A stretch of 64,000 nucleotides of DNA, taken from NCBI GenBank assembly GCA_905234755.1, contig CAJOIT010000002.1, forward strand, positions 26,405 to 90,404, written 5' to 3'. Each line of letters opens with the position of its first letter. Within the stretch, counting starts at the first letter, position 1. The notes beneath the pieces were generated by a model that saw nothing but the letters and a program-made list of their open reading frames with translations, did not search any database and had not been told where the DNA came from. Shown here one piece after another: positions 18,096 to 33,603 of the stretch. The DNA is from an uncultured Bacteroidales bacterium (GTDB lineage: Bacteria; Bacteroidota; Bacteroidia; Bacteroidales; ML635J-15). A program made the translations under genes and the position numbers.

Positions 18096-18096
18096 G

Positions 18097-18136
18097 AAAA
18101 AGTAGGGGCAGGTTTGAAACCTACCCCTACTTTTTC
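18097..18136. terminator. Bidirectional intrinsic terminator between convergent genes
   Basis: AAAAAGTAGGGGCAGGT-TTGAA-ACCTACCCCTACTTTTT. The stem has one mismatch and is flanked by A and T runs. Confidence 0.8.
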
Positions 18137-19047
18137 TTTCGTTTATACATTTCCTCCATCGAATCAATAATGTTTTTCATATAAATGCGTAGCGAAACTG
18201 GTTCCAATACCTCAACCTGATTGTGCATAGTAAGAAGCTCCTGAACAAATTCGTATGTTGGTTTTAGATTGTACTCGAAGATGGCGTATTCATTGGTTGC
18301 CTTCTTAATGTTTTCCTTTTGCGAACTATGCAAAGGAAGCGAGCGCAAATAGCAGTCACGATAACCAAACTCAGCCCCCTTGTAAGCCTTTACGACAATG
18401 TGTTCCATTTTTTTGTTGGTAATGCTGATGCCGATAATGTTGTCGAAAACCTCTTCGGGATTGTTGTCTGGCAGTTTGTATTTCTGGTCGGTACATTCAG
18501 CATTATTGATTCTGTCGAGAGCATAAATGCGTACTCCGCGTTCCGACTTTGCGAGCACATACCAGCGCTGCTTGTATAACTTTACACAATATGGTTCAAT
18601 TAAGAAATTGCTTTCCTCCTTTCCGAAACCTTGATGCCAAATGTGGACTTTTCGTTGGTCACGAATGGCTTCTATCAAAGTTGTTAGAAACATTTGTCCA
18701 GACGGAATATTTTCGAGCAAAATGCGCTTTTTCAACTGCTGGCTTTCGCAGACAAAGTTGTGCAACGACATTGAATTCAGTAACCATGATTTTGTTGAAT
18801 CGGATTTGCTATCATCGCTGGTGATGAAATAATTGTATTCGCCACACCCTTCACATTCGATGTCGATGCCAAAGATTTCAGCAATATCGTTGATATGTCG
18901 CAGAAAGGTACGCTTGCTTAACTCCAATCCGCCATCGCGTTCTTCGCGTTGCCATGCTCTATTTATTTCCTTGAACGGAACTCTACCTCTTCGGCGTATG
19001 TAACTTATTAACCACACATAATTGGAAATCAATGATTTTGTATCCAT
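18127..19047 (-). CDS. WYL-domain transcriptional regulator (wHTH-WYL-WCX architecture)
   Basis: 306 aa. N-terminal HTH-like segment and a WYL core: KLYKQRWYVLAKSERGVRIYALDRI. ATG start. Confidence 0.75.
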   Translation of the reverse strand: MDTKSLISNYVWLISYIRRRGRVPFKEINRAWQREERDGGLELSKRTFLRHINDIAEIFGIDIECEGCGEYNYFITSDDSKSDSTKSWLLNSMSLHNFVCESQQLKKRILLENIPSGQMFLTTLIEAIRDQRKVHIWHQGFGKEESNFLIEPYCVKLYKQRWYVLAKSERGVRIYALDRINNAECTDQKYKLPDNNPEEVFDNIIGISITNKKMEHIVVKAYKGAEFGYRDCYLRSLPLHSSQKENIKKATNEYAIFEYNLKPTYEFVQELLTMHNQVEVLEPVSLRIYMKNIIDSMEEMYKRKKK

Positions 19048-19075
19048 ATTGCGTTCGCATTTCTATTAATATTTG

Positions 19076-19083
19076 CAAATCTA
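19076..19083 (-). promoter_or_regulatory. -7 box TAGATTTG for the WYL gene
   Basis: TAnnTTTG match on the minus strand, 28 nt upstream of the ATG at 19047. Confidence 0.45.
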
Positions 19084-19113
19084 AGAAAAAGATACGACAA
19101 AAAATGTCCGAAG

Positions 19114-19153
19114 CAAAGAAAAATAAAAGGCGAACCTTTTGAGTCCGCCCTTT
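19114..19153 (-). terminator. Intrinsic terminator of giant gene 1
   Basis: Minus strand reads AAAGGGCGGAC-TCAAAAG-GTTCGCCTTTT then ATTTTT. The stem is 11 bp with two G-U pairs. Confidence 0.75.
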
Positions 19154-19177
19154 AAAGAATGAGAGTAGAGTATATTT

Positions 19178-22100
19178 TTAATAAACTATAGTTACCGCAC
19201 CCTTGTATGGTTCATCGTCATTGAACAAGTCGATTACATACAGATATGTTCCAGCTGGTACGAAATGACCTCTGTAGCTTCCATCCCAAGGTTCTGCATA
19301 ACCCTTAGATGTGAACATCAATTGACCCCAACGGTTGAATATATGAACCTCAGCAGCCGGGAACATTTCAATGTTGACGATTTCCCATGTATCGTTAACG
19401 CCATCGGCATTAGGTGTAAATACATTAGGAATACGCAAGCAGTCAACATCCACATCGGTCAATGTTATCAGCATTTCAGTTGACTTACAGTTGTTTCCAT
19501 CAACTACGCTAACCACATACTCGCCAGACGGAATGTTCTGCAGATATGATACATCAGATGTGCTATTGTTCAAGCTGTACAAATAAGGCTCGACACCACC
19601 GACAGCACTTACATTAATCTTACCTGTACGGCTATTCCTACAGAATGGATCCTCAACTTCCACATTCATTTGCAGTGCATCGGGTTGAGGAACAAGAACT
19701 GGCTCGCTTACATCGCAGTTGTTGTTATCAATTACATGCAATACATAGTATCCTGCGCTCAAATTGTTGAATACGCTTATGTTTGACTGTTCAACAAGAC
19801 CTTCTATCATGTAGCGGTATGGGAGGACACCACCTTCTGCAGTAACCTCAATACGACCTGTCTTGTCGCCATTACATTTAATCTCACCAATAGTTGTTTC
19901 AACATTTATTGCCGCAGGCGCTTCAAGTGTTATTGTCCTAGCAACAGAGCAACCTGCTGCATCAGAAATTGTCACCGAATATGTACCCATGCCAATGCCG
20001 GAGACTTCACTTTCGTGGGTAGAATTGCTCCAGAAATATTCGTAAGGAGCCATACCACCGAATGCAGAAACTACAATGCTACCATCCTTTGAATTATGGC
20101 ACAACGGCGCTTCTGAATATACCTGGACATCCATTTCCTGCGGTGATACAAGATTTACACCTGCCTGACCAGTACATCCCCAAGCATCGGTAACTGTTAC
20201 CATATATACACCCGCAAAGAGGTTGTATAGTTCAGGAGATACATTTCCTGTATTCCATGAATAAATAGCCGGTTGTGCAGCATTCGGACATACAGCAGCA
20301 ATAGAACCATCGTTGAAACCGCTACAACTTACAGGCTGAGTAACTGTTGCATTTACAGAAAGCATGCCCTGCATCGATACATTTGCCTCGGCACTTGCCA
20401 TACATCCGTTTGCATCTATTACTGTAAGTCCATAGGTTCCAACTCCGAGGTTATCATTCGTCATTTCCGTTATTCCATTCGACCATACATAAGACTGATA
20501 TGGTAATGTTCCTCCGATTACCGAAGCGGTCAACGAACCTTGCGAAACACCGCAGTTGATGTCGCGGACATTGATAGTCGGACGAAGTTCGAGTGGCTGA
20601 ACTATTGCACAAGGCAATACTGCGGAGCATCCGCCATTATCGGAAACCGTGACAGAATAGCCACCAGCGACAAGATTGTTTGCTGTCATACCCGACTGTC
20701 CATCACTCCATTCGCAGAAGTATGGCGGATTTCCACCTGTAGCTGTTACTGATGCAGTAGTGCTACCACCATAGCATAATACAGTGCCAGGTGTCACTTG
20801 CGGAACAAATTCAGGAGCCCTAGTAATTGTTATACTAGCAGTACCTTCACATCCGTTAGTTCCTGTCGCCGTTACAGTGTATAAATCATCTGCATATACG
20901 GTGGTTGTCGCCGTTGTCGCATTGTTCGACCACAAGTAAGAATCAACAACACCAACTACATTCAAATCGATAGATGTTATAACGCAATTCAGTTCTGTAC
21001 CTGGAGTACTTGTAATACTTATAATTGGAGCATCAAAATCCTGTCGCAAGGTTATGCTTGCTGTTGACTGACATTCGTTAACTGCAGTTACAGTAACAAT
21101 ATATTGACCTCCAGCTGTCAATGTTCCATGATCGTCATCGCCAGTGTAGTTGCTACTCCACAAATATTCGTATGGTCCATCAGCACCACTAACTATTACC
21201 GTAATTGGCATGCTTGGATTATTACAATCCAGAGTAGTAATATCGCCAAGTCCATTATTAATAGTTACTTGCGGAGTATCATGGTTGTCTGCTACCGTTA
21301 TAGAAGTAGTTTCAATACAACCGTTGAAACCAGTTGCGGTAAGATAGTATACTCCACCTGCCAAGAATGTATTGGTCTGTGATGCCGGAGTTGTACCGCC
21401 CGACCACATATACGACTGAGCATTACCAACAGCAGTTACAGTAACTCTCGATACTGCACAATTAAGTTCCAATCCATTCGGAGTATCAAAGTCATAAAGT
21501 GTTGGCGGTTCCAAATTGCTGTCAATAGGTATCTGAGCAGATGCTGTACAACCATTGCGTGCTGTAACAGTAACTGTATAAGTACCTGGGGTTGTTACAT
21601 ATTGTTCAGGACCACCACCCCACAAAGCATTGCTCCATGCGAAACTATATCCACCCTGGGCAATAATATGTATTGAATCCAAATTACATGTAAGAACTGT
21701 TTCTCCTGTAATATTGTCGATTCTTGCATCAGGTGGGGTAAAGTTGTCGAGCATCTCTATACTAACCTCATTTTCGCATCCGTTAATACCCTGAACTGTA
21801 ACAGTATAAATACCAGCCTGAGATATTGTTATAGACTGTGAGAAGTCTCCATTATCCCACAGATATGTACCTCCGCCAACAATATTGGCAGTCAAATCGA
21901 CTGTTCGGTGAGCACAATCAAGTGCTGGATATGAAGGTGTTATAGAAGCCTGAGGTACTGTAAAGTCTTCTGTAATAACAACGCTTGCATAATTAACACA
22001 TCCATTTGCTCCTGTTGCAGTTACAGTATAAGAACCAGCAGCAGTCAAATCAATTTCCGCACCTACATGTCCGCCTGGCCATTCGTACGAAACACCTGTT

Positions 22101-25100
22101 CCTGTTGCAATAGCATGTACAGATTGAGCATTACAATTAATTTCGTTGAATCCGCTTTCGTTTCTTATCGAAACAACTGGTGGCGTAAGGTTTTCCGAAA
22201 TCGATACAGATGTCACTGCAGTACAACCATTGGAAGCTGTAGCTGTAACAGTATATACTCCCGTACTTTCAACCTGGTTTACTGCGTCATTAGGATACAA
22301 ACCTCCTGACCAAACATAGCTAACTGCATCACCAGTAGCAGTAAGTGTCAAATCGGTTGTTGCACATGTAAGAGTAGTATTAGGAGCAAGGATTTCCACA
22401 TGCGGTCTACCCATTGTTTCCGTTATCTCTATATCAGCCGTAGCCGTACAACCATTATCTGCCGTTGCTGTAACAACATATGTACCTATAGTTGTAAGTT
22501 CATTCGGTGCCTGATTAGTATATGAACCACCAGACCAACTATAGTAAACTACGCGGGCAGAACCTACTGCAGTAACATTTATTGTCGAAACATCACATGT
22601 GAGAACATTTGTTCCTGTAACATTGTTAATGCTAACTGTTGGTGCTTCGAAATCAGACCTGATATCAATGCTTGCAACAGATGTACATCCGTTAGGTGCA
22701 GTTGCTGTTACATAATATGTAGCAGCTTCTGTGAAAGCATTACCTGTACCTGTCAAGTTTTCACCGCCAGACCATTGGTAAATATCAGCATCGGTATCAT
22801 CTATGAGTGATACAGAAATCGAAGGTCCAGCACATGTAAGTATATTCGTATTCGAGTTGTTTCCTATTTCAACATTAGGAGTTGAAATGTCCTGCTGGAT
22901 TTCAATCTGCTCCGTTGCGACACAACCATTTTCGGTAGATGTTGCCGAAACAATATATATACCTGGTTCGGTTACCGAATATGTAACACCAGTTCCGGGA
23001 CGAGTTCCTGCCTCATTATTCCACTCGTATGTTACAGAAACATTTGCACTAGCGGAAAGTGTTATTTCATCGAACGGATCCCCATCCGAATTACACATAA
23101 GCACTGTGCGCGGTGCTTCAATCGAAACTTGTGGCAAGTTACCATCGCTACTGATTACTGATGAAGCCGATGCCGTACAACCATTCGGTGCTGTTACTAC
23201 AACTGTATATGTACCAGCAGATGTTACATCCTGTGAATCCCATGACAAAGTTGCCCCCGTAGTGATAGATGAAGCCACAAGTTCAATTGATGGATTAGCA
23301 CATGTAATAACGCCAGTCTCTGGTGTTACTTGCGCATCAGGAATGTCATTGTCGATACCGACATAAATGGTTGCAGTTGCCATACAGCCATTAGCAGCAG
23401 TAGCTGTTACTGTGTATGTATTCTGCTCATGAACAGTATAACTTGCCTCATGAGGTCCCTGATACCATGCGTATGAAGTTCCGGTTCCTGATGCTGTAAG
23501 AGTAAGAGACTGCTCGGCACAAGTCAAAGTAGGATTATCTGGACTTATGCTTACTTCCGGCAAGTCAACATCCTTGTCGAGATGTATTGTTGCCTCGGTT
23601 GTACAACCGTTATCAAGTCTTGCAGTAACAGTGTAATCACCACTTACAGGATAATTGTCAAGTGTTGCAACATTCGATGGCGACCAGGTCATAGTTCCAT
23701 TTCCTGTTGCGTTAAGAGTTATCGATGTAGTCGTACAATTCAAAGTAGTTGTTGACGGCGGTACAATTGATACCGTTGGAGTATTGCTATCACTTAAGAT
23801 TTCAAACGATGCAGTAGCCGTACATCCGTTTTCTGCCAAAACTGTTGCCACATATACGCCTGGAGCTGTTACTGTCAAAGGATTGGTGTTTGTTGCAGTC
23901 GGTTCTGTCCACGACAATGTTGCGCCAGTAGTAGTTGTTGTTGCGAGAAGTTCTATCTGGTCAACATCACAAGTAAGCTCGTTTGTATTAGGACTGTTTT
24001 CAATTCTTACATTCGGCATAGAATTATCAATACCAACGACAAAGTCATTTGTTGCCGTACATCCATGTGCATCGGTTACCGTTACTATATATGTTCCGTC
24101 TGTAGTGAAAGTATTGTCGGCAACATTTACAGAATTCGACCATGAATACGAAGTTCCACCTGTTGCGGTTACAGTAATTTCCTGTTGTGTACAAGTGATA
24201 ATATTTGTTCCGCCTGCAGTGGTATTGAGAATATCAACAGTAGGTAAAGAATAAATAGTTACCGAAACATCATCAGTATAATCTGTAAATGATCCGCTAT
24301 CGCTACATGAGTTTGCACTCAATGTTGCAGTATATGTATATGTATTATCGCTTGTAGGAGTTACTGTTATGCGCTCGCCGTTGGTTGTACTCAATCCAGC
24401 GCCTGCAGATGGGCTTGCCGACCATGTAACCGTATAACCGGAACCAGCATTTGATACATTGGCCTGCAATACAAGATTATCACCAAGACAAACATTGTCT
24501 GCGACAACATCTACGGCTGGGACATCTCCAAGAGTAATTGATACTGAATTCGTTACCTCACAACCATTTGCATCGGTAACTGTTACCGAATATGTTGTCT
24601 GACCTGTAAGGTTCGGTGTTACAAGCACATCGCTTGTCGAGTTATCCGACCAATGGTAAGAGTATGCTTCCAGACCGTTAGATGCATGAGCTGTAAGCGT
24701 GGTATTTGAACCTGTACATATTGACAACGAACCCGAAATTGTAACTTCAGGACTTGTCGGCATATTGGAAATTACCATAGCCTGCTCGGTGTAGCAATCG
24801 GCAGATGTTGTTTCGTTTGTTATCCTTACGGTATATGAACCTTCTTCAAGGTTGCTGAAAGTTACAGCAGCACCTGTTGATGTCTGGTTTGGTTGACCAG
24901 TAACGCTGACAGTATAAGTAGAACCAGCAGTACCACCAGCAAAGTTGCTTACTGTTATAGTGCCATTGTAAGGAGCAACACACTTAGTGTTATCGGTCTT
25001 TGCTATGTCGGCGGTAGGTGTTTCGGAAACAGAGATAGTCTGCGAAACTGTAGCCGTACAGTTGTTTCCATCCGATACTCTCAATACATAAACCACATCT

Positions 25101-28100
25101 GCACTTCCTGGTGTTACTGTCGGACTGATGGTAATGGATGAGGTTGTGGTCGATGCTGGCATACCAGGTGTTATGGTATGTGTTGCATCGCTTTCGGTAG
25201 TGCATGTCCAACGATACTGGCTGAATGATGCCGGATTAGCTGTCAATATAACCGATGAGCCGTTGCATATTTCGTCATCAGATGCATCAATAGTAACATC
25301 TGGCGTATCGTAGATTGTTATCGAAACAGCCATATCATCGTCTGTACATGGAGCTGTTGCACCTGTGGTAGTAACAGAGAAATCGAAAGTACCAGTTTCT
25401 GTTGGCGTTCCGCTCAATGTCAGCGTATGAGCAGTATTGTCAAGGCTTGACTGAACGCCAGCAGGCATTGTTCCATTAACAGAAAGGCCTGTTGCACCTC
25501 CACCGTAAGTAAATACAATGCTACTCAATTCGGTTCCAAGGCAGAAACTCTGTGTTGTATTTCCTGCTACATCCAATTCAACGCTTTCGCTAACTACTAT
25601 TATTCCATACCTTTCTGCAGGCTTACATGGTGGTATTACACCGGTTGTTGTTACAGTGTAACGGAATGTTCCTGTTTCAGTCGGTGTACCATAAATAGTA
25701 ACGGTATGCGCTACTGTATTTACGGTAAAATCAAGACCAGCAGGCAATGCATCCGCAAGCGTTTGCTCGTCTATTCCAGTTGCTCCACCGCCGTAGGTGT
25801 AAACTATATTTGTGAAAGTTTCTGGGAGACAAATGCTCTGGTTGTCGGTTCCAGTTGCCGATGTAAGCAAAAGTGTTGCGTTTGTAGAAATAGATATTGT
25901 ACCGGATAGCGACTTGTTTTCACATGGCTCTTCAACTCCAGTTGTCGTTATCGTATAATCATATTCACCAGCCTCAACACCCAATGATGGCGAGCCATAA
26001 ATAGTCACTACATTACCAGATACTGATGCTGTAATACCATCAGGCAAACCTGTTACTACTGCTCCAGTAGCAGCGCCACCGAAAGAGTACTGAATGTTTT
26101 CTGCCCATGGAACTTCGACACACAATACTGCATCTGGCGAATCCGAAAGCAAGGTCAATTCGGCTGGATCACTTATGGCAATCGTAGCCGTAGTACTTAC
26201 ATTTGAACAAGGAGATGTAGCACCAGTTGTAGTAACTGTAAATGTTCCCGCAGCTGTTGGTGTTCCACTTACAGTCAATGTGTGAGCTGTTGTATTGAGT
26301 GATGATGTAAGTCCAGCTGGCAAGTTGGTTGCTTCAGCGCCTGTTGCTCCCGTATATGTGAACACAAATTCTGTAATATTGGAACCTTCGCAAACTGTTT
26401 GCGGTGAATTACCAGATGTTAGTTCGATTGTTGCAGGATCTGTAACCGTTATGGTACGCGTTACTGAAATATTATCGCAAGGCGATACTGCACCGGTTGT
26501 TGTTACCGTATAATTATATGTTCCTGCGGTCACATTGGTTGTTCCAGTAATTACTATAGTATGGTTAGATGTGTTAACATTGAATTCCAATCCTGTTGGA
26601 AGGCCAGTAACATCGGCACCATTTGCTCCTCCTCCGTATGTGAATACTATGTTTGCAGAAGATTCGCCCTTACACAATGTTTCGCTACCTGATGTATAAG
26701 AAAGTGTTGGAAGCGGATTTACAGTGATTAACATTGTGGTTATTGTTGCACACTGACCGAAATCAGGAGTAAATGTATAAGTATTGGTTCTGTTGGTAAT
26801 TGCCGGCGACCACGAACCAGTTATGCCATTTGTTGATGTTGTTGGCAAAGCATCAACGGTTGTACCTTCGCAATATGGACCAGCCTGATCAAAGGTAGGA
26901 GTTATATTACCTTCGTTGACAATTATACGACCGGTAACGGTTTGCTCCGTACAACGAAGTCCTGTTTGGCTAACTGTTGTTATAGTATAATTATAGGTAT
27001 TATGAGTTGTCGGAGCACCAGAAATGGTAACTGTATTTCCAGATATGTTCATTGTAACACCATCCGGCAAACCGGTTACCGTTGCACTTACAGCCACACC
27101 GCCCAAAGTATACACTATATCAGTTAATGCCTGACCTTCGCAAACTGTCTGTATTTCCTCTCCTGAAACATGAGTTATTGTAGGTGCTACGGCAGTGTAT
27201 GTAAGCGGGATATTTGTAGAACAACCAAGATTATCCGACAATATGATATTGCAAGTCTGCTCAGTATTAGTTGCGGTTTGTGGTTCAATTGTCATATTGT
27301 TGCCTGCAACCGTAGCAATGCTTCCGCAGTCGTTCGAAACACCTTCGAGGTCAACTGTATAATCCCAGTTGCTTGGCAAAAGGTCTTCCGAAAGTGATAT
27401 TTCCCAGTCGAATACATATCCGTTGTCTTCTGCCCAGCTGTCGCAGACAGAAATTGACCATGTTCCATTTAGTGGACAACCAATAAGGTTGGAGAAGTTC
27501 TGGAATGGCTGATACATTTGCGTTCCTGCATCTACATTGGATGGTATTATATGATGAAGCGTAGTTGTTTCCGCAACTCCGTCGTCATATACTGTTGTCG
27601 AAGAGGACATGTTTGCCACATTATAAACATAGCCAACTGTAGTGTATTGTGAATTGCTTGTCCATGCATAATCGTAACCTACACCATGTATATTGTGTTC
27701 GTTGCTTCCATCGCAAATTTCCGCGGATGTCAAATCATCGCCATCACTAACATCATATAAGTCAGGCTCACCAAAATAAATTCTAGTGTATCTGCCTTCA
27801 ACGGTATAAGATGAAACCACACCGTTTCCTCCACAAACATATGTGAGGAAATACTGTGCCGCCTCCTGAGAAGCAAACGAAAATGCATTGTTTTCTGTTG
27901 TATTGTCGCGTGTCAGCCATACTATATAACCTTCATCACCTTCATATGTATATCCTATTACATAATACAATGTATTATCATTGCCATCCGTAATTCTATA
28001 AACAACATAATCTCTACCTGAATAATAGCGCGACAAGTAATTAGTTATAAAGTCTTGAGCATCTGTTCCGCTACTGAACGAAGCCAAATAATATGTATAT

Positions 28101-31100
28101 CCGCCTGTTGTATATGCTTCGTTCTGGTCCTCAAACACCTCATAGCGGCCTAGCATATGCTGACCTGTGTACCAGTTGGTTGCAGATGTTCCAACATGCC
28201 AACGAGTTGTAGTTACTCTATCCGGCCATACATATGTATATGGGTCAATTGCATTGCTGCTATATACATCGCTTTCTGAGTCGTTGCTGTAGTAGTCCTG
28301 CAAAATTATAGCAGAACGACCATTAGGACATGTAAGTTTTATCTGCACATCACCGATGAACGAATGTTCCATATTGAGGCGAACATACTTTATTGCATTA
28401 ACATTAGTTACAACATCGCCATCATTGAAATCGTAGAAAGTAACATCTGATGTATAGCACTGCGTAGCACAATTCAATCCATCAGGGATGAAAGTTGTTT
28501 CGGCATGACCAAGAGATGTTTCAATTGTATGAGGTTCCGGATTGACTTGAATGTCGGAACCTGTACCGCCGATTGTGATTTCACGGCTGTCTCCGACACA
28601 TATATTACCAAGAGCATACGAATCCAAGCTTGTTTCCAATCCGCCCGACACACGGATTCTTCCGTATGCAACGGTTGAACATTGTCCCTCTGATACAGTA
28701 AGCGATACATCGTAGCCCTGCTCTGCACCCGGAGTATATGATGCATTCTGTGTATTTACAACATATGGAGCGACACCGCCGTGAGGATTAATGCTCCATC
28801 TCCACGATGGATTGGTGTAGCCAGTCTGTGTACCACCCATATTTACACCAGAACCAAGACATACATCGAAATAGTATCTGTCACCAATAACTTCGGTGTA
28901 ACCTGTCATAGCCACTGTCGCATCAGGACAATCGATTTGGCATTCTGGAGCATCAATATAAGTTATTCTCTCGCAGTTTGTTGTTGACGAAACAAATGAT
29001 GCTGTTATAGTATGTTCCTGTCCATCACCCTGTATTCCGCTAAGCGAATATGAAATAGGGCTTACGAAAGGAGGTGTGAATACCTGTGATACTGAACCAT
29101 CAGAAATTGTAAGAGTACCGTCAACCGGCGGATCGGTAAAGTTGATATTACCACTAACCGAGAAAGTCTGGTCGGTACTGCAATCGCCAACTATTGTTGT
29201 AATGCTTGATATGCTACAGTCATTAACAATTGTACAGTCGGAACGGCCAGCATTGGGATCATTGAGATTTGTCTGGTTCATCGTTATTGTGCCGGTACAA
29301 CCAGCAAAGTTTGCGACCACAACAATATAAATCTCCCCTTCCTGTGCATTTGTAATTTGCAAATACTCATCATGAGAAGTAGAACCTCCATAGTCAACAA
29401 GGTTTCCGCTAGGAACTGCCAAGGCAAAAGTTCCATTAATATAAGTGCTTGTAGTTGATGAAGTAGGCGTTGTTCCTCCATACGAAGTGCCATAGTATGT
29501 AGCCTGATCTGCTCCGGAATAATACGAATAGTCCGTTCCATTTGTCAAGTCATTTGTGCGGTCGCAGGTAACATTGTCAAATGGTCCCCAGCAACCGAAA
29601 TCGACATCACCACAATCGGAATGAATTGTCATATTGATAGGACCGGGTTCGGAAATACGCAGGAACCACCAAGTAGGACTATGAGTAAGGAAACTACCTA
29701 TTCCGCCTTCGGTGTCATCTTCTGTATCACTAATTGTCAAAATGTATTCTGCCACATCGTTTGACGCGCAAAAAGCCATAGCCGATTCGCAATCGGGACT
29801 ACCGGTAATCTCTGGTGGCGTGCTGGAGTACTGGGCATACAAAGTTACATCTGCACAGCCCAAATCTACAGTTGCCCCAGCAGTATAAGAAGTTCCCGAG
29901 CCATCGGCAGCGGTATTCCAACCGTGGAAATATGGCAGTGAGGAACAAGTGGGTTCCGTAGATGTAACAATTGCGGTTGTTCCTGTTGCACCAGAAGGTG
30001 CAGCACTTGCCGTACCACCTGCACAATTTGTGGTAGTATTATAAGTTAAACGATGTGAAGTTCCCGTTACAGTAACAGTATAAGAACCAGTTGCACCACA
30101 ATAATCACCACTAGTAGCCAATCTTGCAGTAATGACTGCCGTACCTGTTGAATGTGCTGTTACTACACCTGTTGACGACACCGTCGCTACATTCTCATTA
30201 GATGATGACCAAGTAATAGTACCAGAAGTACTGCCGCCACTAATTGTAGGATTCTGCGAAGTTGTTCCTGTACAACTTGATATGTTTACATTAGAATTAT
30301 TGAAGGTCAATGTTCTTTGTATACAGTCATCTATACAGAATTTCATTTCTGGACGTTGCGAGGTAGTTGATCCTGTTGAAGTTGACACATTGTTGCCATC
30401 AAGAGTTACTGATGAGGAGGAATTAGTACAATATGCCGTCATATTATCAACACTCGTATAATAAAAATTAGGATATGTTGTACCACTTGGAGTAGTATTG
30501 CTTGTTCGCCTAATAGCTACCAATATGTTACTAGCCCCATCCCAGTAAAGACCTGCCGAACTTATATCAATGCTCGTCCACTCGTTAATAAAGCTAATAG
30601 TTCCAGAATATACCAATGTCAAACCAGCATCTGATATCCAAGAAGTGGGAACTGCTGTCTGGGAAGTAAATCCAACATAGACCTCAAACGACAAAGCATT
30701 TGTTGTGGTTTCCGCATAGTGTAACGCAAGCGATCTAAGCGTTCCTGCAAAAGCACCAGCTGCAGTTAATTCGGTAGCAGTATATAGTTGCTGAGTATAT
30801 GCATAATAATTGAAATATGTATATATACCGCCATAAGTTCCTGAAGATGACGAAGTAGAACCAGTACCAATTCTTGCACATCCATCATTAACATTCACAG
30901 TCAGATACAATATCTTATGACAATAAGCAGAGTTAGAAGGAGTATATTCTATTCTAATAGTTGTAGATCCTTCCGCTACTCCTGTTATCACACCGTTAGT
31001 TACTGTTGCAACTCCAGTATTAGACGATGTGTAAGAAATCGTTCCTGAAGGTGTAAGCGTATTGGTAAGGGCATTAGAAATATTATATGTACTACCTGCT

Positions 31101-32596
31101 GTAATATTTATTGTACTGGGATTTAGCGCAAATGTACCTGTTGGCTGAGTACAATCTTCAGTTATACAGAACTTAGCATTGGCACGGTTTGCTCTTAATG
31201 CCTTACTTCCGCTAAACGACCCGAGATTGTAGGGATCTGGATTATAAGAATCGCTGTAATGATCCAAAACACTATTTGACACACTGGTATACGTAAAGTA
31301 CCTGCTTGAATATCCATTTGTATTCTCGTCCATTGCCACAAGGAGATTACTAGTGCCATTATAATCAAAAGGTGCAGACAAGTTAATGGTAACCCACCCT
31401 TCTTCGCCAGGAATAGTCCAAGAACCGCTATACACAATGTCTGCAGCAGTAACAGTTTCGTAATCCGTAGTGCTTGCAAAAGTACTACGTGTCACTTCTT
31501 TCATATACAGCACTATATTATTTGTCTGGGCTGTTGTTGTCGAAGATGGCTTATGGTAGAAACTAACAGAGGTTATCTGTCCGGACGTTCCAATTTCCCC
31601 TGCGGTATATATCTGTTCTACAAACGAATATCCGTATAACGAATTGAAAGGTACATAATAAGTTGTAGATGTTCCAGTTCCTACGGTAACACAGTCATCC
31701 GACGGAGGAGTTGAACCACATCCTGAAGCAGTTATTGTGGCAGACCAACCATCAGCATAAGTTGAAACATCCGAACTCCATACTACAGTCATTGTTCCGC
31801 TTGTTGCTGTTAGATTAGCAGGTGCAGCCGAACCACTATAGGCACTCAAAAGTGCAGTTCCAGATGTAGTGCCATCATATACAGTTATCTTATCGTAATT
31901 AGATTCCGTATTAAACGTAGCAAAAGATAATGTTATATTTCCTGTTGATGTGAATGTTGCCGTCATGCTCTGGCTATTGCTATAACTACCATTCGGTCCT
32001 CCTGAATCGTAGAAACAATATGTAGTACCACAATCTATTGTTCTTGACAATCCGTCTGCCATATTGAATGACACATCACAAGAAAGAGGTGCCACATACT
32101 TGTATGCAAGAGTATAGGAACCAGAAGTTGATGAACTATATGCTGTTATATACAAAGAAATCCATCCGGTTTGAGTAGCAGTATATGTAATCACTGATTG
32201 ATTTCCACTACAACCATCGTCATTATATGCCAAACATGACCTATCGGAACTATAACAACCGTAGCCATAACCATATATAGCCATATATGTATCAAAACCT
32301 GCCGTTCCTCCTCCTTCCCCTTCTGGACAAAGAGAAAAGGTATATGTCCGACCTTCAGTAACATAAACATCATGACGATTATAACTACCACTCGAAACAC
32401 TTTCACTTAATGTCTGCCAAGTTGTAGTTGGAGAAATATCGCCAGGATAATTACATGTTCTATCAGAGAAATACGAGCTTTGCGCATAACTCATTTGCGG
32501 TGCAAGCATACTCCACGAAAGCATCACAAATATCACAACTAATGCCGTTCGCATTGGCATTACCTTATTCATGAATATATGGTATATATTTTTCAT
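19178..32596 (-). CDS. Giant (4,472 aa) SprB-like modular surface adhesin, T9SS type B cargo
   Basis: Uninterrupted 13.4-kb ORF with an ATG start and signal peptide (..VIFVMLSWSMLAPQMSYAQ). Modules in order: PPC-like, CUB-like, 2 x (unknown module + Big_2), Listeria-Bacteroides repeat, a Cys-rich unassigned region, a split P-domain, He_PIG-like repeats, 19 Ig-like repeats, 6 SprB repeats, and a CHU_C sorting domain. The start could instead be Met13 or Met15. Confidence 0.9.
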   Translation of the reverse strand: MKNIYHIFMNKVMPMRTALVVIFVMLSWSMLAPQMSYAQSSYFSDRTCNYPGDISPTTTWQTLSESVSSGSYNRHDVYVTEGRTYTFSLCPEGEGGGTAGFDTYMAIYGYGYGCYSSDRSCLAYNDDGCSGNQSVITYTATQTGWISLYITAYSSSTSGSYTLAYKYVAPLSCDVSFNMADGLSRTIDCGTTYCFYDSGGPNGSYSNSQSMTATFTSTGNITLSFATFNTESNYDKITVYDGTTSGTALLSAYSGSAAPANLTATSGTMTVVWSSDVSTYADGWSATITASGCGSTPPSDDCVTVGTGTSTTYYVPFNSLYGYSFVEQIYTAGEIGTSGQITSVSFYHKPSSTTTAQTNNIVLYMKEVTRSTFASTTDYETVTAADIVYSGSWTIPGEEGWVTINLSAPFDYNGTSNLLVAMDENTNGYSSRYFTYTSVSNSVLDHYSDSYNPDPYNLGSFSGSKALRANRANAKFCITEDCTQPTGTFALNPSTINITAGSTYNISNALTNTLTPSGTISYTSSNTGVATVTNGVITGVAEGSTTIRIEYTPSNSAYCHKILYLTVNVNDGCARIGTGSTSSSSGTYGGIYTYFNYYAYTQQLYTATELTAAGAFAGTLRSLALHYAETTTNALSFEVYVGFTSQTAVPTSWISDAGLTLVYSGTISFINEWTSIDISSAGLYWDGASNILVAIRRTSNTTPSGTTYPNFYYTSVDNMTAYCTNSSSSVTLDGNNVSTSTGSTTSQRPEMKFCIDDCIQRTLTFNNSNVNISSCTGTTSQNPTISGGSTSGTITWSSSNENVATVSSTGVVTAHSTGTAVITARLATSGDYCGATGSYTVTVTGTSHRLTYNTTTNCAGGTASAAPSGATGTTAIVTSTEPTCSSLPYFHGWNTAADGSGTSYTAGATVDLGCADVTLYAQYSSTPPEITGSPDCESAMAFCASNDVAEYILTISDTEDDTEGGIGSFLTHSPTWWFLRISEPGPINMTIHSDCGDVDFGCWGPFDNVTCDRTNDLTNGTDYSYYSGADQATYYGTSYGGTTPTSSTTSTYINGTFALAVPSGNLVDYGGSTSHDEYLQITNAQEGEIYIVVVANFAGCTGTITMNQTNLNDPNAGRSDCTIVNDCSISSITTIVGDCSTDQTFSVSGNINFTDPPVDGTLTISDGSVSQVFTPPFVSPISYSLSGIQGDGQEHTITASFVSSTTNCERITYIDAPECQIDCPDATVAMTGYTEVIGDRYYFDVCLGSGVNMGGTQTGYTNPSWRWSINPHGGVAPYVVNTQNASYTPGAEQGYDVSLTVSEGQCSTVAYGRIRVSGGLETSLDSYALGNICVGDSREITIGGTGSDIQVNPEPHTIETSLGHAETTFIPDGLNCATQCYTSDVTFYDFNDGDVVTNVNAIKYVRLNMEHSFIGDVQIKLTCPNGRSAIILQDYYSNDSESDVYSSNAIDPYTYVWPDRVTTTRWHVGTSATNWYTGQHMLGRYEVFEDQNEAYTTGGYTYYLASFSSGTDAQDFITNYLSRYYSGRDYVVYRITDGNDNTLYYVIGYTYEGDEGYIVWLTRDNTTENNAFSFASQEAAQYFLTYVCGGNGVVSSYTVEGRYTRIYFGEPDLYDVSDGDDLTSAEICDGSNEHNIHGVGYDYAWTSNSQYTTVGYVYNVANMSSSTTVYDDGVAETTTLHHIIPSNVDAGTQMYQPFQNFSNLIGCPLNGTWSISVCDSWAEDNGYVFDWEISLSEDLLPSNWDYTVDLEGVSNDCGSIATVAGNNMTIEPQTATNTEQTCNIILSDNLGCSTNIPLTYTAVAPTITHVSGEEIQTVCEGQALTDIVYTLGGVAVSATVTGLPDGVTMNISGNTVTISGAPTTHNTYNYTITTVSQTGLRCTEQTVTGRIIVNEGNITPTFDQAGPYCEGTTVDALPTTSTNGITGSWSPAITNRTNTYTFTPDFGQCATITTMLITVNPLPTLSYTSGSETLCKGESSANIVFTYGGGANGADVTGLPTGLEFNVNTSNHTIVITGTTNVTAGTYNYTVTTTGAVSPCDNISVTRTITVTDPATIELTSGNSPQTVCEGSNITEFVFTYTGATGAEATNLPAGLTSSLNTTAHTLTVSGTPTAAGTFTVTTTGATSPCSNVSTTATIAISDPAELTLLSDSPDAVLCVEVPWAENIQYSFGGAATGAVVTGLPDGITASVSGNVVTIYGSPSLGVEAGEYDYTITTTGVEEPCENKSLSGTISISTNATLLLTSATGTDNQSICLPETFTNIVYTYGGGATGIDEQTLADALPAGLDFTVNTVAHTVTIYGTPTETGTFRYTVTTTGVIPPCKPAERYGIIVVSESVELDVAGNTTQSFCLGTELSSIVFTYGGGATGLSVNGTMPAGVQSSLDNTAHTLTLSGTPTETGTFDFSVTTTGATAPCTDDDMAVSITIYDTPDVTIDASDDEICNGSSVILTANPASFSQYRWTCTTESDATHTITPGMPASTTTSSITISPTVTPGSADVVYVLRVSDGNNCTATVSQTISVSETPTADIAKTDNTKCVAPYNGTITVSNFAGGTAGSTYTVSVTGQPNQTSTGAAVTFSNLEEGSYTVRITNETTSADCYTEQAMVISNMPTSPEVTISGSLSICTGSNTTLTAHASNGLEAYSYHWSDNSTSDVLVTPNLTGQTTYSVTVTDANGCEVTNSVSITLGDVPAVDVVADNVCLGDNLVLQANVSNAGSGYTVTWSASPSAGAGLSTTNGERITVTPTSDNTYTYTATLSANSCSDSGSFTDYTDDVSVTIYSLPTVDILNTTAGGTNIITCTQQEITVTATGGTSYSWSNSVNVADNTFTTDGTYIVTVTDAHGCTATNDFVVGIDNSMPNVRIENSPNTNELTCDVDQIELLATTTTTGATLSWTEPTATNTNPLTVTAPGVYVATVLAENGCTATASFEILSDSNTPTVSIVPPSTTTLNCTTTSITLNATGNGTMTWSPSNVATLDNYPVSGDYTVTARLDNGCTTEATIHLDKDVDLPEVSISPDNPTLTCAEQSLTLTASGTGTSYAWYQGPHEASYTVHEQNTYTVTATAANGCMATATIYVGIDNDIPDAQVTPETGVITCANPSIELVASSITTGATLSWDSQDVTSAGTYTVVVTAPNGCTASASSVISSDGNLPQVSIEAPRTVLMCNSDGDPFDEITLSASANVSVTYEWNNEAGTRPGTGVTYSVTEPGIYIVSATSTENGCVATEQIEIQQDISTPNVEIGNNSNTNILTCAGPSISVSLIDDTDADIYQWSGGENLTGTGNAFTEAATYYVTATAPNGCTSVASIDIRSDFEAPTVSINNVTGTNVLTCDVSTINVTAVGSARVVYYSWSGGSYTNQAPNELTTIGTYVVTATADNGCTATADIEITETMGRPHVEILAPNTTLTCATTDLTLTATGDAVSYVWSGGLYPNDAVNQVESTGVYTVTATASNGCTAVTSVSISENLTPPVVSIRNESGFNEINCNAQSVHAIATGTGVSYEWPGGHVGAEIDLTAAGSYTVTATGANGCVNYASVVITEDFTVPQASITPSYPALDCAHRTVDLTANIVGGGTYLWDNGDFSQSITISQAGIYTVTVQGINGCENEVSIEMLDNFTPPDARIDNITGETVLTCNLDSIHIIAQGGYSFAWSNALWGGGPEQYVTTPGTYTVTVTARNGCTASAQIPIDSNLEPPTLYDFDTPNGLELNCAVSRVTVTAVGNAQSYMWSGGTTPASQTNTFLAGGVYYLTATGFNGCIETTSITVADNHDTPQVTINNGLGDITTLDCNNPSMPITVIVSGADGPYEYLWSSNYTGDDDHGTLTAGGQYIVTVTAVNECQSTASITLRQDFDAPIISITSTPGTELNCVITSIDLNVVGVVDSYLWSNNATTATTTVYADDLYTVTATGTNGCEGTASITITRAPEFVPQVTPGTVLCYGGSTTASVTATGGNPPYFCEWSDGQSGMTANNLVAGGYSVTVSDNGGCSAVLPCAIVQPLELRPTINVRDINCGVSQGSLTASVIGGTLPYQSYVWSNGITEMTNDNLGVGTYGLTVIDANGCMASAEANVSMQGMLSVNATVTQPVSCSGFNDGSIAAVCPNAAQPAIYSWNTGNVSPELYNLFAGVYMVTVTDAWGCTGQAGVNLVSPQEMDVQVYSEAPLCHNSKDGSIVVSAFGGMAPYEYFWSNSTHESEVSGIGMGTYSVTISDAAGCSVARTITLEAPAAINVETTIGEIKCNGDKTGRIEVTAEGGVLPYRYMIEGLVEQSNISVFNNLSAGYYVLHVIDNNNCDVSEPVLVPQPDALQMNVEVEDPFCRNSRTGKINVSAVGGVEPYLYSLNNSTSDVSYLQNIPSGEYVVSVVDGNNCKSTEMLITLTDVDVDCLRIPNVFTPNADGVNDTWEIVNIEMFPAAEVHIFNRWGQLMFTSKGYAEPWDGSYRGHFVPAGTYLYVIDLFNDDEPYKGAVTIVY
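19181..19432 (-). other. T9SS type B C-terminal sorting domain (CHU_C / gliding-motility-associated CTD, TIGR04131-like)
   Basis: IPNVFTPNADGVNDTWEIVNIEMFPAAEVHIFNRWGQLMFTSKGYAEPWDGSYRGHFVPAGTYLYVIDLFND... Confidence 0.85.
19433..20812 (-). repeat. 6 SprB-type repeats (about 77 aa each)
   Basis: Each unit has C-x(2-4)-(D/T/Q)G-x-(I/L)...GG-x-x-PY-x-(Y/F)-x-W...G-x-Y-x-(V/L)-x-V-x-D-x-x-x-C. Confidence 0.7.
20813..25300 (-). repeat. 19 tandem Ig-like beta-sandwich repeats (about 75-80 aa); the last 15 form one regular family
   Basis: Recurrent pattern LTC..x..I.L.A.G....Y.WS.G......G.Y.VTAT..NGCT....I.I......P.V.I. The repeats are divergent at the DNA level. Confidence 0.6.
25301..27195 (-). 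repeat. 6 He_PIG-like (putative Ig / dystroglycan-cadherin-like) repeats plus one unrelated Ig-like module
   Basis: Recurrent pattern Q.VC.G..I..IVYTYGGGATG..VTGLP.GL.......T(L/I)T(I/V)SGTPT..GT(Y/F).(Y/F)TVTTTG....C. Confidence 0.5.
27385..28400 (-). other. Proprotein-convertase P-domain split by an insert of about 270 aa
   Basis: N-terminal half VRLNMEHSFIGDVQIKLTCPNGRSAIILQD at about 28310-28400. C-terminal half GCPLNGTWSISVCDSWAEDNGYVFDWEISL at about 27385-27480. Confidence 0.55.
29825..30055 (-). other. Listeria-Bacteroides repeat (InlB B-repeat-like)
   Basis: HRLTYN...FHGWNTAADGSGTSYTAGATVDLGCADVTLYAQY. Confidence 0.5.
30062..30320 (-). other. Big_2 (bacterial Ig-like group 2) domain, copy 2
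   Basis: ITWSSSNENVATVSSTGVVTAHSTGTAVITA. Confidence 0.6.
30885..31135 (-). other. Big_2 (bacterial Ig-like group 2) domain, copy 1
   Basis: ISYTSSNTGVATVTNGVITGVAEGSTTIRIEY. Confidence 0.6.
31720..32075 (-). other. CUB-like domain
   Basis: C..YCFYDSGGPNGSYSNSQSMTATFTS..ITLSFATFNTESNYDKITVYDGTTSG..LLSAYSGS..P..LTATSGTMTVVWSSDVSTYADGW. Confidence 0.6.
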
Positions 32597-32607
32597 AGTC
32601 GTATGTT

Positions 32608-33216
32608 TTATTTGTTCTTACCGTTTTCGTTATAGTTTGCTGATGAAGCCTGTTCTGCTCTCTTGCTGTTTTTACTATTCTCAGCAGACTGCTGGTTTAC
32701 AGGTTGAGCATTTACTGGCACAGCATGCAAATCGCTTGATTTTTTTTCAGAATTTTTCTCCTGCGATACCCTCATTTCGGGAGATTCTGAAACTTTTACC
32801 GTAGTAACATTGCCCGGATGTTTAGTAACCTTGACATTCGACGGCTGCTTTTCGTAGTCCTGTGGCGATGCTGGCGGGAAGTCGCCATTCTGCTCCCTGT
32901 ACTCCTTCAAAGCATCGTTTACGGCATCAACAATCATTTCTGGATCAATGCTCTGCAAAGCCTCATACATGAAAGTTTCGCCATTCCTATATATCGTGAC
33001 TCTATTTACATCTGGATTTTCAAGTATCATCTTCGAAACGAACTCCCGCATTTCTGGCGAGTTTGGAAAATCTGCCATCTTGAAATAAGTGATACGAGTA
33101 CCATTTTCGTAAAATTTGGTATCGCCGCTGTCCGAAAGCTTTACTTGTGAGAAAACAGGCAGACATATAGACATAATTGCTATGCCCAAAATAAGTTTTA
33201 ATAAACATCTCTCCAT
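32608..33216 (-). CDS. 202-aa secreted protein of unknown function, ending 11 nt upstream of the giant gene 1 ATG
   Basis: ATG start and signal peptide MERCLLKLILGIAIMSICLPVFSQ. A folded-looking domain of about 100 aa is followed by a low-complexity polar tail of about 90 aa. I recognise no family motif. Confidence 0.65.
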   Translation of the reverse strand: MERCLLKLILGIAIMSICLPVFSQVKLSDSGDTKFYENGTRITYFKMADFPNSPEMREFVSKMILENPDVNRVTIYRNGETFMYEALQSIDPEMIVDAVNDALKEYREQNGDFPPASPQDYEKQPSNVKVTKHPGNVTTVKVSESPEMRVSQEKNSEKKSSDLHAVPVNAQPVNQQSAENSKNSKRAEQASSANYNENGKNK

Positions 33217-33312
33217 ACTCTACTTCATTAATAATCAACAAATAATATACAATTCTACTCTATCTCTTTTTGCGATTCCGAACCATAAAAATACAGTTAC
33301 AGAATTAACGAC

Positions 33313-33320
33313 CAAATTTA
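33313..33320 (-). promoter_or_regulatory. Candidate -7 box TAAATTTG for the 202-aa ORF / giant gene 1 unit
   Basis: TAnnTTTG match on the minus strand, 96 nt upstream of the ATG at 33216. No good -33 TTTG is present. Confidence 0.3.
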
Positions 33321-33420
33321 CACAAAGATTTTAAAAATGCAAAAAAAATTTTAAATATTTTTTAAGATTTACAAAACTGACATTTCAAAGGAACAATATT
33401 TGACCTCAAAAAACGACATA

Positions 33421-33464
33421 AAAAACACAAAAAAAATAGCGGCGCAATACATTGCGCCGCTACA
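33421..33464 (-). terminator. Intrinsic terminator of giant gene 2 (REP-like palindrome copy 3 plus U-tract)
   Basis: Minus strand reads TGTAGCGGCGCAATGTATTGCGCCGCTA followed by TTTTTTTTGTGTTTTT. Confidence 0.75.
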
Positions 33465-33466
33465 AA

Positions 33467-33540: not shown

Positions 33541-33603
33541 GGGCATTATGCATTATTAATTATACATTGTCAATTATCCATTATCAATTGTCCATTGTTC
33601 ATT
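33541..33603 (-). repeat. 9 in-phase heptads AATKNAY overlapping the giant gene 2 stop codon
   Basis: Minus strand reads AATGAAC AATGGAC AATTGAT AATGGAT AATTGAC AATGTAT AATTAAT AATGCAT AATGCCC. The TGA stop lies in the first unit. Confidence 0.85.

What the first reader, a model, noticed from the sequence alone, without database searches (positions are those of the whole stretch)
18127..33216. SprB-like type B T9SS cargo without an adjacent PorP/SprF-type partner gene
In Flavobacterium johnsoniae, SprB and other type B CTD proteins depend on a cognate PorP/SprF-family outer-membrane protein. That partner is typically encoded right next to the cargo gene. Here the gene downstream of the type B cargo lies behind a terminator and encodes a WYL regulator. 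The upstream gene encodes a 202-aa soluble-looking secreted protein. Neither resembles a PorP/SprF beta-barrel of about 300 aa. Either the partner is encoded elsewhere, or the small upstream protein takes over an accessory role, or this lineage handles type B cargo differently.
Basis: partly seen in the sequence, partly recalled or inferred. Interest (0 to 1): 0.6.

Follow-up and report, generated by a model that had tools for sequence, protein, structure and literature searches.

The report
Orphan type B T9SS giant adhesin
A 4472-residue surface adhesin of an uncultured rumen Bacteroidales bacterium has a type B secretion signal but no neighbouring PorP/SprF gene; this is ordinary, because such "orphan" cargo is already known, is the rule in this lineage, and the same genome carries a PorP/SprF gene on another contig.

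Summary
The 19178-32596(-) gene encodes a 4472-aa SprB-repeat protein ending in a type B T9SS sorting domain (TIGR04131, E 5e-20). A WYL regulator lies downstream behind a terminator, and a 202-aa family-less secreted protein lies 11 nt upstream. No PorP/SprF gene occurs in the 64-kb window.

It is not anomalous. Orphan type B substrates served by a distal SprF-like shuttle are published for F. johnsoniae (3 of 12 substrates) and P. gingivalis (PG1035-PorP). In 28 type B cargo loci from about 12 related rumen MAGs, none has an adjacent PorP/SprF. The congeneric MAG RGIG7873 carries a PorP/SprF plus 1096-aa type B cargo pair on another contig. A near-identical PorP/SprF (86 of 89 words shared) lies on another piece of this genome.

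The 202-aa protein is not a PorP/SprF substitute. It is a signal peptide, an 85-aa alpha/beta domain and a disordered tail. Remote homologues are fused to the N-terminus of P0003-like adhesins, or precede adhesins carrying type A CTDs. It therefore tracks the adhesin's binding "head" domain, not the type B pathway.

Interest is low; the small partner protein is the only mildly new item.

The parts
19178..32596 (-). P0003: 4472-aa giant surface adhesin, type B T9SS cargo. Order: signal peptide, PPC-like domain, CUB, insert, 'head' beta-sandwich, about 40 Ig-like repeats, SprB repeats, type B CTD.
   Evidence: ORF, translation, Pfam, NCBIfam TIGR04131.
32483..32596 (-). Predicted Sec signal peptide of P0003 (residues 1-38; predicted cleavage ...SYA|QSS).
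   Evidence: Read from the translation. It has a hydrophobic core and A-Q at the predicted site. No signal-peptide predictor was available.
31736..31951 (-). CUB domain of P0003 (residues 216-287).
   Evidence: Pfam PF00431, E 3.5e-8. It is homologous to the CUB of the fused protein P0308 (40% identity).
28937..29809 (-). 'Head' module of P0003 (residues ~930-1220). This is the domain that co-occurs with, or is fused to, P0002-like domains in other lineages.
   Evidence: BLASTP to P0308 gives 48% identity, E 1e-73. BLASTP to the L222 1615-aa type A cargo gives 41%, E 1e-53. The AF2 model is a beta-sandwich, and Foldseek places the model beside CUB/neuropilin-type modules.
20018..20104 (-). Best-scoring SprB repeat (residues 4165-4193), one of four matched stretches.
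   Evidence: Pfam PF13573, E 1.9e-15 for the whole protein.
19187..19435 (-). Type B C-terminal sorting domain (residues 4388-4470).
   Evidence: PF13585, E 1.4e-24. TIGR04131, E 5.3e-20. It is 54-89% identical to 28 orphan CTDs of related MAGs and 38% identical to the PorP-paired cargo's CTD.
32608..33216 (-). P0002: 202-aa secreted partner protein. It comprises a signal peptide (1-23), a bb-a-bb-a domain (26-110) and a disordered K/N/S/Q-rich tail (111-202). Its stop lies 11 nt before the P0003 ATG.
   Evidence: No family hit. 66 homologue clusters, only in rumen Bacteroidales MAGs. AF2 pLDDT is about 90 for the domain. No PDB fold match at E<=1e-3.
33313..33320 (-). TAAATTTG, a Bacteroidota-type -7 promoter motif about 97 nt upstream of the P0002 ATG (candidate operon promoter).
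   Evidence: Pattern match. The motif is not enriched in the window overall (60 found, 59.6 expected), so this is weak evidence.
33436..33463 (-). Terminator-like hairpin plus T-run after the upstream type A giant gene. It separates that gene from the P0002-P0003 unit.
   Evidence: 12 pairs, 7 of them GC, then a T-run.
19124..19154 (-). Terminator-like hairpin plus T-run 24 nt after the P0003 stop.
   Evidence: 13 pairs, 5 of them GC, followed by TTTTTCTTTG.
18127..19047 (-). P0001: WYL/WCX-domain regulator. It is a variable neighbour, not a conserved partner.
   Evidence: Pfam. It is present after the orthologue in L007 and L009 only and is absent in L008, L011, L012 and L034.
33599..47932 (-). 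P0004: about 4777-aa fn3/DUF5018/InlB-B-repeat surface protein with a type A CTD. It is the conserved upstream neighbour. Its likely start is the ATG at 47932; the ORF opens at a TTG at 47956.
   Evidence: Translation and Pfam. The same gene order occurs in L002-L006.

Best explanation
P0002 and P0003 form a two-gene operon for a giant cell-surface adhesin of a rumen Bacteroidales bacterium. P0003 is exported by Sec, and the type IX secretion system recognises it through its type B C-terminal domain. A PorP/SprF-family outer-membrane protein encoded elsewhere in the genome then takes it from the translocon and holds it on the surface. It is thus an "orphan" type B substrate of the kind described for F. 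johnsoniae Fjoh_1123/1720/4934 with Fjoh_1677 and for P. gingivalis PG1035 with PorP. The orphan CTDs of this lineage form one tight family that differs from the CTD of the one PorP-paired cargo. The likeliest shuttle is therefore a shared orphan or core PorP, not the paired one.

P0002 is not part of the sorting step. It is a separately encoded N-terminal module of the adhesin, most likely a periplasmic pro-domain-like chaperone or a distal tip subunit. It goes with the adhesin's CUB/'head' binding region.

Shown: the domain calls, the operon anatomy, the absence of a local PorP/SprF, the presence of a distal PorP/SprF in this genome and in a congener, the clade-wide orphan pattern, and the P0002-adhesin gene fusions. 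Inferred: which PorP/SprF serves P0003, and what P0002 does.
For: - Type B CTD: TIGR04131 E 5e-20 and PF13585 E 1e-24.
- No PorP/SprF in the window.
- A distal PorP/SprF in the same genome: P0230 (PF11751, E 6e-46) shares 86 of 89 words with another piece of this genome.
- The congener RGIG7873 (flanks 89% nt identical) has the orthologous giant without PorP (L008). It has a PorP/SprF, an 8-nt gap and a 1096-aa CHU_C cargo on another contig (L213).
- 0 of 28 clade loci have an adjacent PorP/SprF, against 14 of 48 elsewhere.
- Orphan CTDs are 54-89% identical to P0003's, whereas the paired cargo's CTD is 31-40% identical to them.
- Literature: orphan substrates share one distal shuttle, and cross-talk needs similar CTDs (PMC12618676). 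PG1035 binds PorP (PMC9143113).
- P0002 keeps the same gene order and 11-nt spacing in three lineages.
- P0308 is a fusion of a P0002-like domain, CUB and head. P0326 is a fusion ending in what reads like a type A CTD (my reading of the sequence; Pfam found no Por_Secre_tail; head match). P0311 lies 24 nt upstream of a type A cargo that has the head domain.
Against: - The number of PorP/SprF paralogues, the core porPKLMN operon and the gld genes are therefore unknown.
- The only distal PorP/SprF shown is paired with another cargo whose CTD is just 38% identical, so it may not serve P0003.
- The 80 comparison loci were chosen by similarity to P0003's CTD, so the tight orphan CTD family is partly a selection effect.
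- In 20 of the 28 clade loci the cargo's 5' end lies outside the fetched DNA, so an upstream PorP/SprF (the orientation seen in the paired locus) cannot be excluded there.
- There is no experimental evidence for secretion or anchoring in this uncultured lineage.
Confidence: 0.8

Rival explanations
1. P0003 is served by cross-talk with the one distal PorP/SprF found here. That is the 341-aa protein encoded 8 nt upstream of the 1096-aa beta-propeller type B cargo.
For: It is the only PorP/SprF shown in this genome. It is conserved across the clade in about 30 clusters. Shuttle sharing and cross-talk are documented in F. johnsoniae (PMC12618676).
Against: Its cognate CTD is only 38% identical to P0003's. 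In F. johnsoniae cross-talk was seen only between closely similar CTDs, and SprF or Fjoh_3972 did not serve Fjoh_3952.
Confidence: 0.15
2. The 202-aa upstream protein P0002 replaces PorP/SprF as the shuttle or anchor for this type B cargo.
For: It is tightly coupled to the cargo gene, with an 11-nt gap and conserved order over 50-87% protein identity. It is secreted.
Against: It has no PF11751 signal. The fold is four strands plus two helices and a disordered tail, not a membrane barrel. The other visible orphan type B cargos of the clade have no P0002 homologue. Remote homologues accompany type A cargos or are fused to the adhesin N-terminus, the end opposite the CTD.
Confidence: 0.03
3. This lineage exports or anchors its orphan type B cargo without any PorP/SprF protein. 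For example, the cargo could be released into the medium or held by another small outer-membrane protein.
For: None of the 28 clade loci has a PorP/SprF nearby. Two loci (L024, L030) carry a 213-aa signal-peptide protein ending in GFGVRF, with a weak OMP_b-brl_2 match, 387 nt upstream of an orphan cargo.
Against: Canonical PorP/SprF-cargo pairs exist in the same genomes. Every type B substrate studied so far needs a PorP/SprF-like protein (PMC12618676, PMC9143113). The OMP_b-brl_2 hit (E 5e-3) is below Pfam's threshold, and no such gene lies near P0003.
Confidence: 0.05

Closest known systems
[quoted passage not shown]
   Same: The cargo has a type B CTD and no adjacent sprF-like gene. A PorP/SprF-family gene is present elsewhere in the genome. 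The orphan CTDs resemble each other more than they resemble the CTDs of paired cargo.
   Different: The organism is an uncultured anaerobic rumen Bacteroidales bacterium. The cargo is far larger (4472 aa). Orphans appear to be the majority rather than 3 of 12. The shuttle has not been identified. The cargo gene has a conserved small upstream partner, P0002.
P. gingivalis PG1035 anchored by the core T9SS protein PorP (PMC9143113, 2022)
   Same: It is a Bacteroidales type B cargo whose PorP partner sits elsewhere in the genome (my own knowledge, the porPKLMN operon; PMC9143113 was not read for gene positions). The CTD stays uncleaved and binds PorP.
   Different: PG1035 is about 50 kDa, the only type B protein of its genome, and possibly a cap for PorP. 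Here several giant adhesins share the CTD type, and at least one dedicated PorP/SprF-cargo pair also exists.
F. johnsoniae SprB with SprF (sprC-sprD-sprB-sprF operon)
   Same: It is a giant repetitive adhesin with SprB repeats (PF13573) next to a type B CTD.
   Different: There is no sprF downstream. Whether the organism glides is unknown. Orthology to SprB was not tested; only the repeats and the CTD match. The N-terminal CUB/head modules and the P0002 partner are not features I know from SprB.
N-terminal pro-domains of T9SS cargo and of secreted proteases that act as intramolecular chaperones (gingipains, subtilases). This is an analogy from my own knowledge, for P0002 only.
   Same: It is a small alpha/beta module at the extreme N-terminus of the secreted protein, followed by a flexible linker. 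It can be supplied as a separate polypeptide.
   Different: There is no sequence or confident fold match. The topology is bb-a-bb-a. No protease domain was detected in P0003.

Membership tests
T9SS type B CTD cargo (TIGR04131 / PF13585 CHU_C) | Type B sorting domain at the extreme C-terminus | tested here: met
   Residues 4388-4470 of 4472. TIGR04131 scores 71.4 bits against a cut-off of 35. PF13585 scores 86.4 bits against 27.
T9SS type B CTD cargo (TIGR04131 / PF13585 CHU_C) | N-terminal Sec signal peptide | tested here: inconclusive
   The translation shows a hydrophobic core and an A|Q site at residues 38/39. No signal-peptide predictor was available.
T9SS type B CTD cargo (TIGR04131 / PF13585 CHU_C) | T9SS machinery present in the genome | tested here: inconclusive
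Indirect evidence: a type A CTD giant lies next door, and a PorP/SprF lies on another piece of the genome.
Orphan type B substrate (as in F. johnsoniae Fjoh_1123/1720/4934) | No PorP/SprF-like gene adjacent to the cargo gene | tested here: met
   There is no PF11751 in the 64-kb window. The neighbours are the WYL regulator and P0002.
Orphan type B substrate (as in F. johnsoniae Fjoh_1123/1720/4934) | A PorP/SprF-family gene elsewhere in the same genome | tested here: met
   P0230 (PF11751, E 6e-46) shares 86 of 89 words with another piece of this genome. The same holds in the congener RGIG7873 (L213).
Orphan type B substrate (as in F. johnsoniae Fjoh_1123/1720/4934) | Secretion depends on, and the CTD binds, a distal shuttle | not testable with these tools
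   This needs co-immunoprecipitation, a reporter secretion assay or complex prediction.
SprB gliding adhesin | SprB repeats plus a type B CTD in a giant protein | tested here: met
   PF13573 matches four stretches, E 1.9e-15. The protein is 4472 aa.
SprB gliding adhesin | sprF immediately downstream, in an sprCDBF-type operon | tested here: not met
   A terminator and then a WYL gene lie downstream. P0002 lies upstream.
SprB gliding adhesin | Gliding machinery (gldJ and others) present, and movement on the cell surface | not tested
PorP/SprF (PF11751), considered for the 202-aa P0002 | Match to PF11751 and an outer-membrane beta-barrel of about 300 aa | tested here: not met
   There is no Pfam or NCBIfam hit. 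Two PorP/SprF HMMs found nothing. The AF2 model has four strands, two helices and a 90-aa disordered tail.
WYL-domain regulator (P0001) | WYL domain followed by a WCX domain | tested here: met
   PF13280, E 1.1e-14. PF25583, E 8.6e-5, which is just under its cut-off.

The most novel reading that the evidence does not exclude
P0002 founds a small, undescribed family with only 47 representatives among 1.84 billion proteins. The family consists of secreted 85-aa alpha/beta modules that belong to the N-terminal, distal end of 'head'-domain T9SS adhesins. In some lineages the module is fused to the adhesin. In others it is encoded 11-50 nt upstream with its own signal peptide. As a split module it would act in trans on the giant adhesin. 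It could be a periplasmic pro-domain-like chaperone for the CUB/head region, or a tip subunit that rides out through the T9SS bound to a CTD-bearing partner (piggyback export, which has not been described for the T9SS).
Probability: 0.4. Interest if true: 0.5.

Novelty: new member of a known kind. Interest (0 to 1): 0.27.

Why it matters
The headline anomaly, type B cargo without a PorP/SprF neighbour, is not an anomaly. It matches a published class, so it opens no new question about T9SS sorting.

There is a modest gain for annotation. In this abundant, uncultured rumen Bacteroidales lineage, gene adjacency cannot be used to pair type B cargo with shuttles. Several giant adhesins per genome appear to share one CTD type, which predicts a single shared shuttle.

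The one item worth a follow-up is the P0002 family. A Rosetta-stone fusion links this family-less small secreted protein physically or functionally to the ligand-binding end of giant adhesins. If it leaves the cell with the adhesin, that would be a first case of hitch-hiking through the T9SS.

Tried and rejected
- The window's genome is not in genome contigs; the best CTD match there is 89%.
- A PorP/SprF profile search of the 5.8-billion-protein set returned only relatives of the seeds and nothing specific to the clade.
- A look-up of P0229 found nothing on record. P0202, P0226 and P0230 gave the same PorP-cargo locus in other rumen assemblies, but none showed the window's own sample among the places listed. 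The link to this genome therefore rests on the word-sharing index.
Laying L091 on four runs that hold the window showed contigs, most under 90% alike, over the PorP-cargo pair. That is compatible with the reading but cannot be attributed to one genome within a metagenome.
- Foldseek and PDB sequence searches for P0002 gave no meaningful relative.
- The AF2 model of the fused protein gave the domain folds but no usable information on contacts between domains, so docking of the P0002-like domain on the head could not be judged.
- I considered and rejected three window ORFs as hidden barrels. The 290-aa ORF at 14585-15457 gives weak methyltransferase hits. The 228-aa ORF at 15519-16205 is a lipoprotein with an LPSC lipobox. 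The ORF at 3921-4469 is probably non-coding.
Full report
**What is in the window.** Four genes lie head-to-tail on the minus strand.

- P0004 (33599-47956, about 4780 aa) has fn3, DUF5018 and InlB-B repeats and a type A CTD.
- P0002 (32608-33216, 202 aa) follows.
- P0003 (19178-32596, 4472 aa) follows after an 11-nt gap.
- P0001 (18127-19047, 306 aa) follows after a 130-nt gap.

P0003 ends in a type B sorting domain. PF13585 CHU_C gives E 1.4e-24, and TIGR04131 scores 71.4 bits against a cut-off of 35. P0003 also has SprB repeats, a CUB domain and a P-domain hit. P0001 is a WYL/WCX regulator. P0002 has no Pfam or NCBIfam family.

Terminator-like hairpins follow P0004 (33463-33436) and P0003 (19154-19124). 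A TAnnTTTG motif lies upstream of P0002 at 33313-33320 (weak, because the motif is not enriched in the window). So P0002 and P0003 look like a two-gene unit, and the WYL gene is separate.

**No PorP/SprF in the window.** Pfam scans of the other 28 listed ORFs of at least 150 aa, and of P0001-P0003, found no PF11751. I built a PorP/SprF HMM from ORFs next to type B cargo in other Bacteroidota. Pfam had confirmed 13 of 32 such downstream ORFs as PF11751, and jackhmmer collected 20 ORFs. Run with --max on every ORF of at least 60 aa, this HMM gave nothing better than E=3 in the window. As a control, it detects all 90 PorP/SprF proteins later found in this clade at E<=5e-18. A clade-specific HMM also finds none in the window.

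**Organism and relatives.** The window lies on a 559-kb scaffold of an ENA rumen-type metagenome assembly. A scan of GTDB representative genomes with the last 100 aa of P0003 gave 372 relatives, of which the best 80 were kept. The first 28 loci (L007-L034) come from about 12 rumen "Bacteroidales bacterium" MAGs. For RGIG9689, RGIG7873 and RUG13712 the housekeeping flanks are 89-92% nt identical to the window and syntenic, so these three are congeners.

**Is the missing neighbour unusual?** It is not.

- Literature. In F. johnsoniae only 9 of 12 type B genes adjoin an sprF-like gene. The three "orphans" are all served by the distal orphan shuttle Fjoh_1677, and cross-talk occurs between similar CTDs (PMC12618676). 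In P. gingivalis the only type B protein, PG1035, binds the core component PorP (PMC9143113).
- Comparative data. None of the 28 rumen-clade loci has a PorP/SprF anywhere in the fetched DNA. All 28 have at least 1.2 kb downstream. The cargo start is visible in 8. For the P0003 orthologue group, L001-L006 show P0002 and the type A giant upstream. Among the other 52 loci, 14 of the 48 with enough downstream DNA have an adjacent PorP/SprF.
- Caveats. The loci were chosen by similarity to P0003's CTD, and orthologous loci are not independent of each other.

**A distal PorP/SprF exists, in a congener and in this genome.**

- I scanned metagenome contigs for that motif and found L091. It has GC 0.42 and a 353-aa PorP/SprF directly upstream of a 1098-aa cargo.
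- Its homologues form about 30 clusters of 341-aa PF11751 proteins in rumen Bacteroidales MAGs.
- One of them, P0191, lies in GCA_017551515.1 on contig JAFZLK010000081. That assembly is RGIG7873, the congener whose giant orthologue (L008) lies on contig JAFZLK010000109 without a PorP.
- The locus reads PorP/SprF (341 aa), an 8-nt gap, a 1096-aa SBBP/CHU_C cargo, a superoxide dismutase, and a 211-aa protein made only of GldM C-terminal domains. This matches two independent earlier notes on this genome in detail.
- A sister protein, P0230 (90% identical to P0191; same locus structure in L219), scores PF11751 at E 6e-46. It shares 86 of 89 short words with a stretch on another piece of this very genome.

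Hence this genome encodes at least one PorP/SprF away from P0003.

**Which shuttle?** The last 100 aa of all 28 orphan cargos are 54-89% identical to P0003's. The CTD of the PorP-paired 1096-aa cargo is only 31-40% identical to any of them. By analogy with F. johnsoniae, where pairing is specific and sharing needs similar CTDs, the orphans probably share one shuttle that is not the paired one. This step is inference, and it is partly biased by how the loci were selected.

**The 202-aa protein.**

- Distribution. It has 66 homologue clusters, all about 200 aa and all from rumen Bacteroidales MAGs.
- Sequence features. Q24, at the predicted signal-peptidase I site, is invariant and C18 is not conserved, so P0002 is a soluble secreted protein and not a lipoprotein.
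- Structure. AF2 gives a confident bb-a-bb-a domain (residues 26-110, pLDDT about 90) and a disordered tail. There is no PDB relative by sequence or fold. It cannot be a PorP/SprF barrel.
- Synteny. The order type A giant, P0002, 11 nt, type B giant is kept in lineages whose P0002 is only 51-58% identical.
- Exhaustive profile search. It found only 47 representatives among 1.84 billion proteins. Two of these are fusions.
  - P0308 (an uninterrupted ORF in L220) reads: signal peptide, P0002-like domain (36% identity, E 2e-18), low-complexity linker, CUB (matches P0003 175-296) and "head" (matches P0003 930-1220 at 48%, E 1e-73).
  - P0326 reads: signal peptide, P0002-like domain, head (E 8e-10), Ig domain and a C-terminal tail that I read as type A-like (sequence; Pfam called no Por_Secre_tail).
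- Stand-alone remote homologues. They sit 24-50 nt upstream of large surface-protein genes. One of these is a 1615-aa GEVED/Ig_7 protein that has the head domain and a type A CTD.
- Other orphan cargos. The clade's other orphan type B cargos mostly lack the head domain (one weak match, in L025) and have no P0002 homologue nearby.

P0002 therefore tracks the adhesin's N-terminal binding module and not the type B pathway. The fusion model shows the same fold for the module, then a disordered linker, a CUB domain and a beta-sandwich head. Foldseek places the model beside CUB/neuropilin-type modules. Its function is inferred only; the candidates are a trans pro-domain or chaperone and a tip subunit. 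Four bovine gut metatranscriptome assemblies contain contigs 95-99% identical to parts of the P0002 gene. The metatranscriptome contigs also cover the upstream intergenic region, so DNA carry-over or read-through cannot be excluded.

**Verdict.** P0003 is a new example of a published class, the orphan type B T9SS substrate, in a lineage where orphans are the rule and where a distal PorP/SprF is demonstrably present. The only mildly novel element is the P0002 family as a split N-terminal module of giant adhesins.

Noticed in passing
window 32608-33216; L220:1837-4389; L222:10001-15478: Rosetta-stone fusion. The family-less 202-aa protein's domain occurs fused to the N-terminus of P0003-like adhesins (P0308, P0326). 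It also occurs as a separate gene just upstream of adhesins that carry the same 'head' domain but a type A CTD.
   Followed up: yes
window 19178-47956 versus L004+L007 (RGIG9689): The adhesin cassette is far more diverged than its surroundings. The flanking housekeeping genes are 91.9% nt identical. The P0003 orthologue is only 64% aa identical over residues 571-4472, with its N-terminal 570 aa not aligned, and P0002 is 51% identical. This suggests diversifying selection or allelic replacement of the surface cassette.
   Followed up: partly
window 15519-19047: The WYL regulator, the S9 peptidase and a 228-aa lipoprotein are an insertion/deletion relative to the congener RGIG7873 (L008). There the cargo gene directly abuts the 290-aa, U32 peptidase and Lon genes. 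WYL follows the orthologue only in L007 and L009.
   Followed up: partly
L024:3399-4040 and L030 (same position): A 213-aa signal-peptide protein ending in GFGVRF gives a weak OMP_b-brl_2 (PF13568) match at E 5e-3. It lies 387 nt upstream of an orphan type B cargo in two rumen MAGs and could be a small outer-membrane barrel partner.
   Followed up: partly
L213:11401-12036 (also L212, L215, L216): A 211-aa protein consists only of GldM third and fourth domains (PF12080, E 4.5e-7). It lies two genes after the PorP/SprF-cargo pair in several relatives.
   Followed up: partly
L028:10286-11305, L029:1135-2103, L031:2191-3201: A family 2 glycosyltransferase gene starts 17-71 nt after the stop of another orphan type B cargo in three rumen MAGs.
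   Followed up: no
window 19187-19435 versus L007-L034 and L219: The orphan type B CTDs of the clade form one family, 54-89% identical to each other's reference P0003. The single PorP-paired cargo's CTD is 31-40% identical to them. This mirrors the shared-shuttle situation in F. johnsoniae.
   Followed up: yes
window 32577-33500: Short contigs from four bovine gut metatranscriptome runs match the P0002 gene and the intergenic region upstream of it at 95-99% identity. One contig touches the P0002/P0003 junction.
   Followed up: partly
window 47932-47956: The P0004 ORF opens at a TTG (47956). The signal-peptide-like sequence begins at the ATG eight codons later (47932), which is the likelier start.
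   Followed up: no
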